64,000 bases of DNA from a virus: positions 250,950 to 314,949 of the IMG/VR virus record IMGVR_UViG_3300020202_000061; one strand, 5' to 3'. This document shows, in pieces, positions 20,278 through 41,195 of this stretch. Position 1 is the stretch's first letter. Each line of letters starts with the position of its first letter. A program made the translations under genes and the position numbers. Below the pieces are notes generated by a model. The model worked only from the letters and a program-made list of their open reading frames with translations. It ran no database searches and was not told the origin of the DNA.

Positions 20278-20363
20278 GCCGGGATGGCTGAGTGGTCGAA
20301 AGCAGGCGTTTCGTAAGCGTCCGAAGCAATTCCTCGCAGGTTCGAATCCTGTTCCCGGCTCCA
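20278..20363 (+). tRNA. class II (Ser-type scaffold, long variable arm) tRNA with anticodon CGT
   Basis: 86 nt; acceptor gccggga/tcccggc; Ser-like D-arm tggctgagtggtcgaaagc; anticodon stem ggcgt/gcgtc with loop ttCGTaa; variable arm about 15 nt; T-arm gcaggttcgaatcctgt; CCA. Confidence 0.7.
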
Positions 20364-20501: not shown

Positions 20502-21026
20502 ATGAACGTGATCAAACCACCGCGTCCACTGACAGGGATTGATGAGTTTTTACCCATCTTGTTCCTGGCCGGGACCATCGACATGGGCGATTCCGTGGAT
20601 TGGCAGGCTGATACCGCCACCCGTCTCAAGCAGTATCCGGGCACCATCCTGAATCCGCGTCGTGACGCCTGGGACAAGTCCTGGAACCAGGACATTAACA
20701 ATCCTGAGTTTGCGTATCAGGTCAATTGGGAACTCGATGGTCTGGACATGGCCACGCTGATCCTGATCAACTTCGAACCGGATTCGAAGTCCCCGATCTC
20801 ATTGTTGGAGCTAGGGCTCCACGCGAATGACCGTGGTCTGATCGTGCGCTGCCCCAAGGGCTATTGGCGTAAGGGTAACGTGGACATCGTCTGCGCCCGC
20901 CATCGTGTGCCGGTCTATGAGGACCTGGATCAAGCCGTGGCCGAGATCACGGTGCGTCTGCAAGCCCAACAGAAATCAATTACCAGTTTCTACCACCAGA
21001 TGGCCGTGGACACAGGTCAGGCATAG
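20502..21026 (+). CDS. hypothetical protein (possibly nucleoside 2-deoxyribosyltransferase-like)
   Basis: ORF 174 aa; LAGTIDMG-type N-terminal motif; weak assignment. Confidence 0.45.
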   Translation: MNVIKPPRPLTGIDEFLPILFLAGTIDMGDSVDWQADTATRLKQYPGTILNPRRDAWDKSWNQDINNPEFAYQVNWELDGLDMATLILINFEPDSKSPISLLELGLHANDRGLIVRCPKGYWRKGNVDIVCARHRVPVYEDLDQAVAEITVRLQAQQKSITSFYHQMAVDTGQA

Positions 21027-21991
21027 ACCTCGGCATCGTGATTCGGTGCGGTGTCGAAGATCGACAACTCCGTGATCGTCTTGAGCACGGTCAGACCGAG
21101 GTCCTCTCTCAGGTGATAGAGCATGGTCTTGAGGTTGTCATCGTAGGCCGACTTCGTGATTCCCGCGTGCCTATAGGTGAGGATCAGCGGAGCGTTCTGC
21201 TTGGCACGGTTGACCGACATGAACAGGGCGTAGCGTTCCTGATCTTCATCCTTGAAGGAGAGATCGACAGCCTGTCGGATGATATCCTCCGCTCCGGGCG
21301 TGACGATCTCGATATGGGTTTCCAGATACACACCGGGCTCTCCGCCCACGGGCTTCCCCTCGGTCTCTAACTGCTTGATGATGGGATGCCAGGGTAGAGT
21401 CTCGATCTTTTGTCGAACCACATTGAGCATGGTATGGCGAGTGAGATCGTAGACCAGCTTCGTCATCACATCCATGGCTTCCTGCTGGGTTCCGAACACC
21501 ACCTTCGAACACATCACATCGGCCTTGAACGGGTCATACCCACGAAGCACATGATAGGGCTCGATATCCAGGCATTTCATCTCGTTTCGGAAACAGAAGT
21601 CTCGGAACGCAAATAACACCTCTTCGTGATTCAACACTTCCGAACCCACCGTGATGTGAATCTCGAACGGGATGGGAAACTTGACGGTGCCTTCCTGTGC
21701 CTGTAAACCGCTCCACTTATTCATTTTTGTGCGAAGCATGTCGTCGAGGTCTTGATCGTTGAACCCGAGCGAGTATCCGATGCTGAGTGCGGCCAGGATC
21801 ACATCCGCAACTTCATCCAGGACGTGATGACGTGAGGTCAATCGGTGCAGGGTGTCGGGTGCGCCCTCCAGTGGGAGAATGGCCTGATTGAGTTCACCAG
21901 TTTCGGCCGCCAGCTTGTTACCCTTCTGACCGAGTGTCTTACGGTCGCGCTCGGTGAGAACCTTGATGAAATCCAGAGTTTCCTGACGCAT
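21017..21991 (-). CDS. MazG-like nucleotide pyrophosphohydrolase domain protein with a C-terminal extension of unknown function
   Basis: N-terminal all-alpha MazG-like region (KVLTERDRKTLGQKGNKLAAETGELNQAI…LDEVADVILAAL); 324 aa on the minus strand. Confidence 0.55.
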   Translation of the reverse strand: MRQETLDFIKVLTERDRKTLGQKGNKLAAETGELNQAILPLEGAPDTLHRLTSRHHVLDEVADVILAALSIGYSLGFNDQDLDDMLRTKMNKWSGLQAQEGTVKFPIPFEIHITVGSEVLNHEEVLFAFRDFCFRNEMKCLDIEPYHVLRGYDPFKADVMCSKVVFGTQQEAMDVMTKLVYDLTRHTMLNVVRQKIETLPWHPIIKQLETEGKPVGGEPGVYLETHIEIVTPGAEDIIRQAVDLSFKDEDQERYALFMSVNRAKQNAPLILTYRHAGITKSAYDDNLKTMLYHLREDLGLTVLKTITELSIFDTAPNHDAEVYA

Positions 21992-22041
21992 ATTTGTTTC
22001 CCCTTCTGGAGGAAACTGTTCGAAACTCTCGAAGAGTCAAG

Positions 22042-22070
22042 TTGACGCCTAGGGATTTCATCTGATAGGA
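22042..22070 (+). promoter_or_regulatory. putative sigma70-like promoter
   Basis: TTGACG 22042-22047; spacer cctagggatttcatctg; ATAGGA. Confidence 0.4.
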
Positions 22071-22099
22071 TCGGAATTCAACAATTGGGGGAGGTTCAA

Positions 22100-22276
22100 A
22101 TGGAGCTTCAAGGCGGGGTTCGTGTTCGCACCCGAAACGGTGCGTACCTGATCGAGCAGGGCAACACCACCAGGATAGTCAAGTTGAAACCGGGCGAATC
22201 CGTCGAGGTTGTTCCGGGTTTCACCATCTCGGCTCCGGCCGAGATCGACGTGGTGATCCATGAGGCTCATCAATGA
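22100..22276 (+). CDS. hypothetical small protein
   Basis: ATG 22100 with RBS ggggaggt. Confidence 0.4.
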   Translation: MELQGGVRVRTRNGAYLIEQGNTTRIVKLKPGESVEVVPGFTISAPAEIDVVIHEAHQ

Positions 22277-22500
22277 AACGACCCCAGACGTGGGTCATCC
22301 TGGGTCTGATCGGTGCGATTGCGGTCTACCTCTATCAGAGCCAGAACAGTTACATGCTGGACCCCGACAACATCCGCTATACGCGTGATTCCCGCACTGG
22401 ACTCTGCTACGCCTATGTGGGAACCAGCCTCGGCTTTCAGAAATCCGTGGGACTGACCCAGGTTCCGTGCTCAGTTCTGACGGACCAGAGCAGCCGCTGA
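22273..22500 (+). CDS. small membrane-anchored protein
   Basis: ORF 75 aa; N-terminal TM WVILGLIGAIAVYLY. Confidence 0.45.
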   Translation: MKRPQTWVILGLIGAIAVYLYQSQNSYMLDPDNIRYTRDSRTGLCYAYVGTSLGFQKSVGLTQVPCSVLTDQSSR

Positions 22501-23141
22501 TCGAGTATCTGGCACGGACTTATTGATGGTCCCGTTGGGCTGATGTATCTCAAACACAAAACCTACGGCTGATTCTTCCAGATACTGGATTAACTGGATG
22601 AGGACCTTCTTCACCTGGGGTGTAATCTTACCCTGAATGAACTCCAGATCGAGTTCACCACGAGTCGTATAGATGCCACGAACCCAGCCATGCTCCATGG
22701 CAATACGGTTCCAATCGGTGCCATCCTCGTTGTAGTCGTCATCTCCGTATCCGAATGCCTGAAATGCCGCATCCTCGTGGTGACCAGCCGGAGGAACCCA
22801 ACCGTATGTTCCCTGCGCGGTAATCCAAAACATACCATGGTCCATGACACGATGGATATCCTCGAACCCAGATTGCGCAATCTGACGGTCGTGCCAATCA
22901 ACTCCTCCCAATGCGGCGATGCGCCTTTCGAGTTGAATGATCTTTCGAGTTGAATGATCATTGATTTGTAGTAGTCGATCTTGTTCTGATCGCGTGTTGG
23001 TATGATCTTCTCGATCATCTCACTACGATACGCTCGCAGCGCGTTTTTGATCACGGCTTCATCCTCCCGCCTCAGAATTTCCTGAAAGGTTGGACGATTA
23101 GGCAAAAACTGTTCGGTTAGGTCACGAAGTTCCATGCTCAT
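22471..23141 (-). pseudogene. hypothetical protein gene frameshifted by a 17-bp tandem duplication
   Basis: ORFs 22611..23141 and 22471..22911 lie in frames differing by 2; the offset is exactly accounted for by the 17-nt duplicated unit; deleting one copy gives a continuous product of about 213 aa. Confidence 0.6.
22926..22959. repeat. perfect 17-bp tandem duplication (tttcgagttgaatgatc x2)
   Basis: read directly from the sequence at 22926-22942 and 22943-22959. Confidence 0.9.
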
Positions 23142-23149
23142 ATTTATGC

Positions 23150-23178
23150 TTGAAACCCCAGGGTAAATCCGCTAAGTA
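23150..23178 (+). promoter_or_regulatory. sigma70-like promoter
   Basis: TTGAAA 23150-23155; spacer ccccagggtaaatccgc; TAAGTA. Confidence 0.5.
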
Positions 23179-23185
23179 TTCCCCG

Positions 23186-23506
23186 ATGCGGTATAGCCTT
23201 TTCCTGGACGACGAACGACATCCTCCTGCCGGACGGTGGGAGATCGCCCGTACTGTGGCCCAGGCCATCGAAATCGTCAAACAAAAGGGATTTCCGCAGT
23301 TCGTGAGCTTTGACCACGATCTGGGGTATGATGCCAACCTGGGTCTGCAAAGGACCGGTATGGACTTCGCCCGCTGGCTGGTGGAGCTTGATCTCGAAAC
23401 CAACCGAATGCCGGACGGTTTCCAGTACTACGTTCACTCTCAGAATCCCGTGGGTGTAGAAAACATCCGTGGTCTACTGGATTGCTATCTGAGAGTGCGC
23501 GGATGA
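23186..23506 (+). CDS. hypothetical protein
   Basis: ATG 23186 after the promoter; 106 aa. Confidence 0.5.
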   Translation: MRYSLFLDDERHPPAGRWEIARTVAQAIEIVKQKGFPQFVSFDHDLGYDANLGLQRTGMDFARWLVELDLETNRMPDGFQYYVHSQNPVGVENIRGLLDCYLRVRG

Positions 23507-23519
23507 AAGCGAGGTTATC

Positions 23520-24134
23520 ATGGGTACGCGTCATTCAATTCTGGTTCAGGTGAACGACGATTACAAGGTGGCCAATTACGGTCAATGGGATGGTTATCCG
23601 AGCGGTCAAGGAACGGGTATCCTCCATTTCCTCGCGGAGGAAATGGACCTGGAGAAGTTCACCGAAGCGGTTCGACACTGCACCGAGATCACCCATGAAC
23701 GTCTTGAGGAAATCTGGCTCTCGATGGGTGCTCGCAAAGACGGTGATAGTTACATGATGGGATCGAATGCGAGCGACAAGTTTCAGCTCGAATATCCACA
23801 TCTGCACCGTGACTGTGGTTCCGACATCCTCAAGATGATCCAGGATGCGGGCGGACTCGAACTCAAAATCGACAAGACATTCCCGGCCGATTCCCTGTTC
23901 TGCGAGTGGGCCTACGTGATCGATTTGGACAAGGGCACGTTCGAGGTCTACGAGGGCTTCAACGAAACACCCCTTGACCCGCAGGAGCGATTTGCCACCC
24001 TGGTGGGTCCGCAAGATCGTCGCAGTGAATACCACCCGTGTCGATTCAAGTACGCATGGCCACTCTCGGCCTTGCCCACTCAGGAGGAGTTCCTCGCCAT
24101 TCTGGAACCACCCGAGGAAGAGACAACGGAATAA
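23520..24134 (+). CDS. hypothetical protein
   Basis: ORF 204 aa. Confidence 0.55.
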   Translation: MGTRHSILVQVNDDYKVANYGQWDGYPSGQGTGILHFLAEEMDLEKFTEAVRHCTEITHERLEEIWLSMGARKDGDSYMMGSNASDKFQLEYPHLHRDCGSDILKMIQDAGGLELKIDKTFPADSLFCEWAYVIDLDKGTFEVYEGFNETPLDPQERFATLVGPQDRRSEYHPCRFKYAWPLSALPTQEEFLAILEPPEEETTE

Positions 24135-24137
24135 TCT

Positions 24138-24857
24138 ATGCCTGATCAGGACGTTCCGTATCCGGGCTGGCCCGAGTTCGAGTATGTCTGTGATAGCGCC
24201 AACTCGGGCAGTCACGGACCTGCTTTCTGCGGGCTTGGTCCGGGGCCGGATTGTCCCTGGTGCCAGCGCAAGGTCGTGATGACGCCGGAATGGGAAGCAT
24301 TCATCGCGGACACCCCAAATCGCCATCAGCGTATCGCTGAGGCCGTGCTGGGAAATCCCGAGGTCAAAGCCTCACTCCGTCGTCATTCCCGTTTCAACCG
24401 TGGTGAATCCCAGGAGCGCATGATGAATGCCGCAATCGACAGCACCGATATTCAACCAATCGCCATCGGCACACCATCAACCAACATCACCAAGGCCGAT
24501 CTTCAACGTGAGGAAGCGAAGTTCCAGCAGTTCAAGAAGGATCGCGGCATCAATAACGAGGTCGAGGCGTTGATCGCAAGCATCCAAGAGAGTCATACTG
24601 CGGCGGTGACGTTCGACGACTCCATGAAACCCTCAACCGAGGAACGCATGAATCGCATCCGCAAGAGTCGTGCGGAAATGGCCAGCTATGATCTGGACAT
24701 CGAGGCATTAACCCGACAGATCACCGATGACATCGCCGCTCGTCAGGACAAGGCCGCCGCCATCACCCGAACGGCTCAGAAAGAACTTCGTCGGATGCAA
24801 CGCCGAGTGTTCTGGACCCTTGTTAAGGACACGATCATCCGCTGGTTCCGTCGATGA
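24138..24857 (+). CDS. hypothetical protein
   Basis: ORF 239 aa; Cys cluster CGLGPGPDCPWC. Confidence 0.55.
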   Translation: MPDQDVPYPGWPEFEYVCDSANSGSHGPAFCGLGPGPDCPWCQRKVVMTPEWEAFIADTPNRHQRIAEAVLGNPEVKASLRRHSRFNRGESQERMMNAAIDSTDIQPIAIGTPSTNITKADLQREEAKFQQFKKDRGINNEVEALIASIQESHTAAVTFDDSMKPSTEERMNRIRKSRAEMASYDLDIEALTRQITDDIAARQDKAAAITRTAQKELRRMQRRVFWTLVKDTIIRWFRR

Positions 24858-24961
24858 TCACCGCTAACGATAACCACCGATCTCTGGCGGAAATCCTCAA
24901 TGATATCCACACCAGAAGGCGACGTGAATCTCTGACCCAACGCGTTCTGGGAAGATTCCTC

Positions 24962-24990
24962 TTGATTTTGAGCCGGATCACGCGTAAATA
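24962..24990 (+). promoter_or_regulatory. sigma70-like promoter driving the class II tRNA (TGT)
   Basis: TTGATT 24962-24967; 17-nt spacer; TAAATA 24985-24990. Confidence 0.55.
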
Positions 24991-24998
24991 AGAACTGC

Positions 24999-25084
24999 GC
25001 CAGGATGGCTGAGTGGCCGAAAGCAGAGCCTTTGTAACGCTCCGGGGAAACCCCACGCAGGTTCGAATCCTGTTCCTGGCTCCA
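24999..25084 (+). tRNA. class II (Ser-type scaffold) tRNA with anticodon TGT; paralog of the 20278 gene
   Basis: 86 nt; acceptor gccagga/tcctggc; D-arm tggctgagtggccgaaagc; anticodon stem gagc(c)/(c)gctc with loop ttTGTaa; long variable arm; T-arm gcaggttcgaatcctgt; CCA. Confidence 0.7.
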
Positions 25085-25092
25085 ATATTCCC

Positions 25093-25121
25093 TTGACATA
25101 TCCTAGGGTTTCTGGTAGACT
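25093..25121 (+). promoter_or_regulatory. sigma70-like promoter
   Basis: TTGACA 25093-25098; spacer tatcctagggtttctgg; TAGACT. Confidence 0.6.
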
Positions 25122-25146
25122 CCTCTTGCAATTCAGGAGGATACCG

Positions 25147-25431
25147 ATGGTCACCGAAGCCCAACTCAACGACTTCATCGCGGGTTGCAGCCGGATTTCC
25201 GGCTCGGACTATTCCTTCTCTTTCGACAACTCCAAGGGTTCCAAGTTCGTTCGGATCGTTCGCGAGGGCGGATGCCAGCGTTCGGTCCACTGCTTCATCG
25301 ACCGCCAAACCGGCGACGTGCTCAAGGCGGCGGGCTGGAAGGCCCCGGCCAAGCATGCCCGTGGCAACCTGTTCGACGCCAAGCAGGGCCTGGGCCTGAT
25401 GGGTCCGTATGGCCCGGCCTATCTGAGGTAG
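25147..25431 (+). CDS. hypothetical protein
   Basis: ATG 25147 with RBS aggagg. Confidence 0.5.
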   Translation: MVTEAQLNDFIAGCSRISGSDYSFSFDNSKGSKFVRIVREGGCQRSVHCFIDRQTGDVLKAAGWKAPAKHARGNLFDAKQGLGLMGPYGPAYLR

Positions 25432-41119: not shown

Positions 41120-41195
41120 GCCAGATTACAGTTTAGTGGTAGAACACGCGGCCGATAACCGTGGAGCGGGGGTTCGATTCCCTCATCTGGCACCA
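41120..41195 (+). tRNA. tRNA with anticodon GAT (Ile-type) and atypical features
   Basis: 76 nt; acceptor gccagat/atctggc; CCA; anticodon stem cgcgg/ccgtg with loop ccGATaa (C33); 2-nt insertion before D-stem gttt/gaac. Confidence 0.6.

What the first reader, a model, noticed from the sequence alone, without database searches (positions are those of the whole stretch)
22471..23141. Perfect 17-bp tandem duplication frameshifts a minus-strand gene
The unit tttcgagttgaatgatc occurs twice back to back (22926-22942 and 22943-22959). The two flanking minus-strand ORFs are in frames offset by exactly what 17 nt produces. Removing one copy restores a single 213-aa ORF. This is either a recent inactivating slippage event, an assembly error, or a phase-variable switch.
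Basis: seen in the sequence. Interest (0 to 1): 0.6.

Follow-up and report, generated by a model that had tools for sequence, protein, structure and literature searches.

The report
Frameshifting 17-bp duplication in phage gene
A real 17-base tandem duplication has broken one small gene of unknown function in an uncultivated freshwater giant phage; related phages keep the gene whole, so this is an ordinary recent gene knock-out, although the gene itself varies unusually fast between phages.

Summary
TTTCGAGTTGAATGATC occurs twice back to back at 22926-22942 and 22943-22959. It is the only perfect tandem duplication with a period of 10 or more in the 64 kb. It splits a minus-strand gene into a 176-aa 5' ORF and a 146-aa 3' ORF. 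Removing one copy restores one ORF of 217 aa, not 213.

It is not an assembly artefact. Three public contigs from two assemblers (MEGAHIT k141 at 401 kb and 5.4 kb; Logan at 0.9 kb) are 100% identical to the window and carry both copies.

It is derived. Three related phage lineages carry one intact gene of 217-240 aa at the same syntenic position, with no repeat there, and they align without a gap across the junction.

I found no slippery site, no stimulatory structure, no copy-number variant and no intact near-identical allele. Programmed recoding and phase variation are therefore unsupported.

The most likely reading is a recent slippage-type duplication that abolishes the full-length protein. 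The 146-aa ORF still holds the complete conserved C-terminal domain, which exists as a stand-alone protein in distant relatives, so truncation rather than complete loss cannot be excluded.

The protein family has no Pfam, PHROG, PADLOC, PDB or fold match. In relatives the gene is a sharply bounded hypervariable cassette: 35% identity inside flanks that are 86-100% identical.

The parts
22926..22942 (-). Copy 1 (in + strand order) of the 17-nt unit. On the coding (-) strand the unit reads GATCATTCAACTCGAAA.
22943..22959 (-). Copy 2 of the 17-nt unit, identical to copy 1. On the coding strand this copy comes first and encodes ...M-I-I-Q-L-E(R).
22471..23141 (-). The disrupted gene as a whole. 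With one copy removed it is a 217-aa ORF with an N-terminal helical bundle (about residues 1-95) and a conserved C-terminal alpha/beta domain (about residues 96-217). The domain carries the motifs FWI, G-H-H-E/D-D and H-G-W-V/I-R.
22611..23141 (-). 5' ORF as it now stands: 176 aa, made of 67 native residues (MSM...IIQLER) followed by 109 out-of-frame residues. It has the conserved ATG start and the conserved divergent upstream region.
22471..22911 (-). 3' ORF: 146 aa, TTG start, equal to residues 72-217 of the restored protein. It contains the whole conserved C-terminal domain. This is the only part that public gene callers annotate (P0001, P0018).
22953..22962 (.). A 10-bp perfect palindrome AATGATCATT (contains GATC) that straddles the outer edge of the duplication. 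It may be relevant to how the duplication arose.
   Evidence: read from the sequence; hairpin seen
23142..23185 (.). A 44-bp divergent intergenic region between the disrupted gene and the cREC_REC gene. It is conserved in relatives (about 84% nt identity to L006), so the gene's expression signals look intact.
23186..23506 (+). Divergent neighbour, a cREC_REC (PF20274) protein of 106 aa. It is the syntenic anchor in all relatives.
22273..22500 (+). Convergent small gene (75 aa, hydrophobic N-terminal stretch). Its 3' end overlaps the 3' end of the disrupted gene by 30 nt. The overlap is conserved in relatives.

Best explanation
This is a genuine, lineage-specific 17-bp tandem duplication, of the kind produced by replication slippage or a template switch at 1-nt microhomology. 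It lies inside a single-copy accessory gene of an uncultivated freshwater jumbo phage (contig about 400 kb). The insert adds 5 codons plus 2 nt after codon 67. Ribosomes that start at the conserved ATG (23141) therefore make 67 native residues, then 109 out-of-frame residues, and stop at 22611-22613. The conserved C-terminal domain is no longer joined to the N-terminal helical module, so the full-length 217-aa protein cannot be made by standard decoding. The gene is a young pseudogene, carried by every assembly of this phage that could be read. Shown: the duplication, its presence in several assemblies, the frame arithmetic, the intact ancestral state in relatives, and the absence of recoding signals. 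Inferred: the slippage origin, the loss of function, and that the loss is tolerated because the gene is a fast-evolving, dispensable accessory gene.
For: The duplication is perfect and unique in the window. Removing one copy gives a 217-aa ORF. That ORF matches P0003 (217 aa, 53% identity) over residues 1-217 of both proteins. It is colinear across the junction with P0019: YYKSMIIQLERRIAALGGVDWHD against YYKDAMLRIEKRLRALGGANWHD. Intact orthologues sit at the same syntenic position, between a divergent cREC_REC gene and a convergent small gene, a 58-aa gene, a MazG-like gene and Nuc_deoxyri_tr2. These are L006-L009 from four samples, L012 on a 409-kb contig, and L004/L005. None has a tandem repeat at the site. 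Contigs L001 (401,308 bp), L002 and L003 are 100% identical to the window and all carry both copies. A fourth contig of 50-200 kb and a JGI/IMG contig of 347,504 bp carry the same 146-aa gene call; I could not read their DNA. All other syntenic genes in the roughly 10-kb neighbourhood align as single full-length matches, so this is an isolated lesion and not poor sequence quality. No X XXY YYZ heptamer lies in the overlap. There is no significant RNA structure (z = -1.55). The TTG start of the 3' ORF has a Shine-Dalgarno score at background level: -3.4, against a gene median of -5.6 and a background median of -3.1.
Against: The 146-aa ORF keeps the entire conserved domain with no further lesions. 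Natural stand-alone versions of this domain (100-193 aa) exist, so some function could survive. No expression or read-level data were available. All contigs of this lineage are identical, so the age of the event and any relaxation of selection cannot be measured. The independence of the samples behind the ENA, Logan and JGI assemblies could not be verified.
Confidence: 0.75

Rival explanations
1. Functional truncation. The duplication removes the hypervariable N-terminal helical module, and the conserved C-terminal domain is still made from an internal start (TTG 22911, or ATG 22845). The gene would be converted into the short stand-alone form seen in distant relatives.
For: The 146-aa ORF (residues 72-217) contains the full conserved domain, which models confidently on its own (pLDDT 89). 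Ten or more relatives of 100-193 aa consist of this domain with only about 30 residues ahead of the FWI motif, as in the 146-aa ORF. No second lesion is present. Gene callers pick this ORF.
Against: The TTG has an SD score no better than random positions. The GAGGA upstream of ATG 22845 is about 13 nt away, which is too far. Ribosomes translating the 176-aa frame run straight through both candidate starts, and that frame ends 300 nt downstream of the TTG, so termination-reinitiation coupling is not available.
Confidence: 0.15
2. Reversible ON/OFF switch. The two-copy state is the OFF phase, and precise loss of one copy by slipped mispairing regenerates the ON allele at a useful frequency.
For: Perfect tandem duplications can revert precisely by slippage (my own knowledge, from classical T4 rII work). 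Removing one copy restores a flawless ORF. The gene is hypervariable, as arms-race genes often are.
Against: There are only two copies of a 17-nt unit, not a multi-copy short-unit tract. The relatives have no repeat at the site. All three readable assemblies have two copies. No intact near-identical 217-aa protein exists among about 15 billion proteins. Pattern scans allowing a gap of 0-30 nt (covering one or two copies) found nothing in the viral, metagenome or genome collections.
Confidence: 0.05
3. Assembly or sequencing artefact. The true genome has one copy.
For: Only that metagenome assemblies can contain errors, and that the samples behind the different assemblies may overlap.
Against: The same two-copy sequence appears in MEGAHIT k141 contigs from two ENA assembly records and in a Logan contig. 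The same split gene call appears on a JGI/IMG contig. The 35-nt repeat is shorter than k=141 and contains no repeated 31-mer, so a de Bruijn graph has no cycle there and copy number is fixed by the reads (my inference).
Confidence: 0.02
4. Recoding. A programmed -1 frameshift, or a 17-nt ribosomal hop from a codon in the first copy to the identical codon in the second (GAA to GAA), yields a near-native full-length protein.
For: The C-frame is open from 23019 (the nearest upstream stop in that frame is at 23020-23022), so any -1 shift between there and 22613 would fuse the two parts. A tandem duplication automatically provides matched take-off and landing codons 17 nt apart (read from the sequence).
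Against: There is no slippery heptamer. No stop codon follows a potential take-off codon. There is no significant structure. The two-ORF arrangement is absent from all relatives, so it cannot be a conserved programmed event.
Confidence: 0.02

Closest known systems
Streisinger-type duplication frameshift mutations (classical phage T4 rII and lysozyme frameshifts)
   Same: A perfect short tandem duplication whose length is not a multiple of 3, inside a phage coding sequence. It arises at minimal microhomology, shifts the frame, and can in principle revert precisely.
   Different: This one was found in a natural metagenomic population of an uncultivated jumbo phage, and every readable assembly of that phage carries it. 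It was not found in a laboratory mutant. The affected gene is of unknown function.
Phase-variable contingency loci driven by simple sequence repeats (for example in Haemophilus or Neisseria genes and some phage or prophage genes)
   Same: A repeat inside a coding region whose copy number determines the reading frame.
   Different: Contingency loci have many copies of 1-8-nt units, are polymorphic between isolates and are conserved as tracts. Here there are two copies of a 17-mer, no polymorphism was seen, and the relatives have no tract.
Phage T4 gene 60 translational bypass and programmed -1 frameshifts (for example tail chaperone G/GT)
   Same: Two ORFs in different frames that together encode one protein. 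Matched codons lie on either side of the inserted segment.
   Different: None of the stimulatory elements is present (slippery site, stop at take-off, hairpin), and the arrangement is not conserved in relatives.
Hypervariable accessory-gene hot spots in phage genomes (diversity islands that often hold anti-defence or host-interaction genes)
   Same: Between near-identical relatives the orthologous ORF is replaced by a 35%-identical allele with sharp boundaries, while the flanks stay about 90-95% identical at the nucleotide level. The gene is small, uncharacterised and transcribed against the flow of its neighbours.
   Different: No functional link to defence or counter-defence was shown. There is no match to PADLOC, Pfam or PHROGs, and the alleles remain homologous rather than unrelated.

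Membership tests
Frameshift pseudogene created by tandem duplication | Perfect head-to-tail duplication whose length is not a multiple of 3, inside a coding region | tested here: met
   17 nt x 2, 100% identical, at 22926-22959
Frameshift pseudogene created by tandem duplication | Removing one copy restores an ORF colinear with intact homologues | tested here: met
   The 217-aa ORF aligns 1-217 to 1-217 with P0003 and is colinear across the junction
Frameshift pseudogene created by tandem duplication | Orthologues at the syntenic locus are single intact genes without the repeat | tested here: met
   L004/L005, L006-L009 and L012; no repeat at the site
Frameshift pseudogene created by tandem duplication | The lesion is in the DNA, not an assembly error | tested here: met
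   Three contigs from two assemblers carry it. Read-level confirmation was not possible.
Frameshift pseudogene created by tandem duplication | Loss of the functional product | not testable with these tools
   Needs expression or proteomic data. The C-terminal domain ORF remains intact.
Phase-variable contingency locus | Tract of many copies of a short (1-8 nt) unit | tested here: not met
   Two copies of a 17-nt unit
Phase-variable contingency locus | Copy-number polymorphism between isolates or assemblies | tested here: not met
   All three readable contigs have two copies. No one-copy allele was found in the protein or DNA collections. Minor variants within samples were not testable.
Phase-variable contingency locus | Repeat tract conserved in orthologues | tested here: not met
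   No tandem repeat at the site in L004, L006 or L012
Programmed -1 ribosomal frameshift | Slippery heptamer X XXY YYZ in the zero frame within the ORF overlap | tested here: not met
   None between 23019 and 22613
Programmed -1 ribosomal frameshift | Downstream stimulatory hairpin or pseudoknot | tested here: inconclusive
   MFE -25.2 kcal/mol, z = -1.55, with 13 of 200 shuffles at least as stable. Pseudoknots were not assessed.
Programmed -1 ribosomal frameshift | Two-frame arrangement conserved in relatives | tested here: not met
   Relatives have one continuous ORF
T4 gene 60-type translational bypass | Matched take-off and landing codons | tested here: met
   Met trivially: each codon of one copy recurs 17 nt downstream
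T4 gene 60-type translational bypass | Stop codon immediately after the take-off codon, plus a take-off hairpin | tested here: not met
   The zero frame stays open to 22613, and there is no significant structure
Any curated protein family (Pfam, PHROGs, PADLOC, PDB) | Significant profile or fold match | tested here: not met

The most novel reading that the evidence does not exclude
The knocked-out gene belongs to an undescribed family of sharply bounded, hypervariable cassette genes in freshwater jumbo phages. The cassette has a variable N-terminal helical module and a conserved GHHED/HGWxR domain. Such a gene could be engaged in a host-phage arms race, for instance as a counter-defence protein or as a protein sensed by a host defence. 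On this reading the 17-bp duplication is an adaptive escape or loss allele that swept this lineage, not neutral decay. It might also be reversible by precise loss of one copy.
Probability: 0.12. Interest if true: 0.55.

Novelty: new member of a known kind. Interest (0 to 1): 0.25.

Why it matters
As a mutation it is ordinary: a textbook duplication frameshift. It matters mainly for annotation. The locus should be labelled as one disrupted gene, not as a 146-aa 'hypothetical protein' beside an empty gap, which is how public gene calls currently treat it.

The side result is more interesting. The gene is an uncharacterised, sharply delimited diversity hot spot in a group of 350-410-kb freshwater phages. 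One lineage has lost the full-length form. Genes with this pattern are good candidates for host-interaction or counter-defence functions. The natural knock-out shows the full-length protein is dispensable for persistence of the phage in the sampled environments.

Tried and rejected
- **GenBank phages:** a megablast of 21000-25000 found no match, and a tblastn of the restored protein also found none.
- **Related loci:** The search for related loci with the two-sequence alignment found no confirmed relatives in IMG/VR or in JGI metagenome contigs. The MazG-like neighbour as an anchor in IMG/VR found nothing.
- **Allele pattern scans:** exact-pattern scans that would detect one- or two-copy alleles returned 0 hits in viral contigs, metagenome contigs and genome contigs. 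The pattern was validated on the window.
- **Contig look-ups:** P0018 (JGI 347.5-kb contig) and the 176-aa frameshifted ORF are not on record.
- **Profile search:** a search of the 5.8-billion-protein set added no new members.
- **Target-site-duplication footprint of an excised mobile element:** considered and set aside. There are no element remnants, and 17 bp is atypical for such a footprint.
- **Junction scar of a recombinational cassette swap:** considered because the duplication lies in the most divergent segment. The two copies are identical, however, and the protein stays colinear with P0019 through the site, so a simple duplication is the more economical reading.
- **Literature:** a search on the sample accessions only established that the relative GCA_900143125.1 is a freshwater metagenome.

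Full report
**1. The observation**

The + strand reads ...gcgcc TTTCGAGTTGAATGATC TTTCGAGTTGAATGATC attg..., with the two copies at 22926-22942 and 22943-22959. Tandem Repeats Finder reports 22925-22959, period 17, 2.1 copies, 100% matches. The extra base is a 1-nt microhomology. An exhaustive scan for perfect tandem duplications with a period of 10-60 found only this one in the 64 kb. By my calculation the chance expectation for period 17 is about 4e-6.

The minus strand carries two ORFs:
- 22611..23141: 176 aa, ATG start.
- 22471..22911: 146 aa, TTG start.

The second ORF starts at offset 230 from the ATG. 230 mod 3 = 2 = 17 mod 3.

At the protein level the first 67 residues (…YYKSMIIQLER) are native. 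The next 109 residues are out of frame. The 146-aa ORF equals residues 72-217 of the restored protein.

**2. It is real, not an assembly artefact**

The 146-aa product (P0001) is on record on four contigs. Three of them could be read:
- L001: ENA ERZ27257313, MEGAHIT k141, 401,308 bp.
- L002: ENA ERZ27257319, 5,372 bp.
- L003: Logan assembly of SRR7004196, 926 bp.

All three are 100% identical to the window over 10,441, 5,372 and 926 bp, and all carry both copies. A JGI/IMG contig of 347,504 bp carries the same 146-aa call (P0018), but its DNA could not be fetched.

The 35-nt repeat fits inside a 141-mer and contains no repeated 31-mer. De Bruijn assemblers therefore have no graph cycle there and cannot change the copy number (my inference).

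One caveat remains. I could not establish whether the ENA, Logan and JGI assemblies derive from fully independent samples.

**3. It is derived: relatives have one intact gene**

An exhaustive HMMER search of 1.84 billion representatives with the restored protein gave 17 hits:
- P0003: 217 aa, 53% identity, aligned 1-217 to 1-217.
- P0002: 240 aa.
- P0004: 220 aa.
- More than ten shorter proteins (100-193 aa) that match only residues ~95-217.

P0019 is a cluster-mate of P0003. It is encoded intact in four samples (L006-L009), including a freshwater metagenome, GCA_900143125.1. P0004 lies on a 409,210-bp contig (L012). P0002 lies on L004/L005.

In all of these the gene occupies the same position as in the window:
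- It is divergent from a cREC_REC gene.
- It is convergent with, and overlaps by 24-30 nt, a small gene of about 80 aa.
- A 58-aa gene, a MazG-like gene of about 325 aa and a Nuc_deoxyri_tr2 gene follow.

Across the junction the restored sequence YYKSMIIQLERRIAALGGVDWHD matches YYKDAMLRIEKRLRALGGANWHD without a gap. No relative has a tandem repeat at the site. All other syntenic genes in the ~10-kb neighbourhood match their orthologues as single full-length alignments, so the lesion is isolated.

**4. Other ways to read through it**

- *Programmed -1 frameshift.* A -1 shift anywhere between 23019 and 22613 would fuse the two parts. That interval holds no X XXY YYZ heptamer and no homopolymer run of 5 or more. 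The surrounding RNA is not unusually structured (z = -1.55).
- *Ribosomal hop.* A 17-nt hop between identical codons is formally possible in any tandem duplication. The T4 gene 60 hallmarks are absent: no stop after the take-off codon and no take-off hairpin.
- *Internal initiation.* The TTG at 22911 has an anti-SD pairing energy of -3.4 kcal/mol. The background median is -3.1 and the median of 30 gene starts is -5.6. The upstream frame is translated straight across it.
- *A one-copy allele.* No intact near-identical 217-aa protein exists in the 15-billion-protein collection. DNA pattern scans allowing a gap of 0-30 nt, which covers one or two copies, found nothing in IMG/VR, JGI metagenome contigs or GTDB genomes. 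The pattern was validated on the window.

**5. What the gene is**

The window comes from an uncultivated jumbo phage. The evidence is the 401-kb contig, 17 tRNA genes all on the + strand, and a family-B DNA polymerase that is at most 34% identical to those of jumbo myoviruses such as Sinorhizobium phage Phosso, Ralstonia phage RsoM2USA and Escherichia phage 121Q.

The restored protein models as two parts:
- An N-terminal helical bundle. The duplication lies in helix 52-72 (pLDDT 80).
- A compact alpha/beta C-terminal domain (pLDDT 89, pTM 0.83).

The invariant or nearly invariant residues are G114, H116, F124, A142, G146, W147, R149 and E192. They define the motifs G-H-H-E/D-D and H-G-W-V/I-R.

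No library recognises the protein:
- Pfam.
- PHROGs.
- PADLOC.
- PDB sequence profiles.

The function is unknown. The conserved histidine and acidic cluster hints at metal or ligand binding. That is my inference only.

**6. Context: a hypervariable cassette**

L012 and L006 are close relatives. Their flanking proteins are 86-100% identical, yet the orthologues of this gene are only 35% identical. Sliding-window nucleotide identity is ~90-95% on both sides. It drops to 30-60% exactly within the ORF. Only the first ~20 nt and the last ~30 nt stay conserved; the last ~30 nt overlap the convergent gene.

Among the four alleles the N-terminal part is 18-42% identical and the C-terminal part 44-64%. 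In the window the duplication lies inside the most divergent segment. The gene therefore behaves as a diversity hot spot, and losing it in one lineage fits a dispensable, conflict-type accessory gene. This last step is inference.

**7. Verdict**

The finding is a real, lineage-specific duplication frameshift. It most likely inactivates the full-length gene (confidence 0.75). The rivals and their confidences are:
- Truncation to a still-functional C-terminal domain: 0.15.
- Reversible switch: 0.05.
- Assembly or sequencing artefact: 0.02.
- Recoding: 0.02.

As a kind of event it is well known. Interest is low to moderate, raised slightly by the undescribed protein family and its cassette-like hypervariability.

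Noticed in passing
L012:5001-5663 versus L006:3090-3743 (orthologues of window 22471-23141): Sharply bounded hypervariable cassette. Nucleotide identity between two otherwise ~90-95% identical jumbo-phage contigs falls to 30-60% exactly within this one ORF. The proteins are 35% identical while the flanking proteins are 86-100% identical.
   Followed up: partly
window 259-42020: ARAGORN tRNA genes, all on the + strand and scattered in small clusters (2 Asn, 2 Ile, Leu, Trp, 2 Thr, 3 Ser, 4 Arg, 2 Lys). Rfam adds a further tRNA-like match at 41121-41190 that ARAGORN does not call.
   Followed up: no
window 21017-21991 (-): MazG-like protein of 324 aa. Its first 116 residues are 100% identical in three phage lineages whose neighbouring genes are only 50-85% identical, so its N-terminal half is unusually constrained.
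   Followed up: no
window 23186-23506 (+): The cREC_REC (PF20274) gene is called in public annotation as 83 aa from a GTG start (L001 4406-4657). Relatives have 108 aa, and the Pfam match covers residues 4-99 of the 106-aa ATG-started ORF. The true start is probably the ATG at 23186, which leaves only 44 bp to the divergent disrupted gene.
   Followed up: partly
window 22471-22500: A 30-nt convergent 3'-3' overlap between the disrupted gene and a small + strand gene (22273-22500, 75 aa, hydrophobic N-terminal stretch). The overlap is conserved in relatives (24-30 nt), and it coincides with the conserved C-terminal peptide ...RSAAALVRQN.
   Followed up: no
window 22953-22962: A perfect 10-bp palindrome AATGATCATT (contains a GATC site) sits exactly at one edge of the duplication. 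After the duplication it can pair with the GATCAT of the other copy in a short hairpin. It may be relevant to the mutational mechanism.
   Followed up: no
window 20502-25431: The neighbourhood combines Nuc_deoxyri_tr2, MazG-like, cREC_REC and DUF7717 genes with two interspersed tRNA-Thr genes (20278-20363 and 24999-25084). This suggests a nucleotide-metabolism or nucleotide-signalling accessory region.
   Followed up: no
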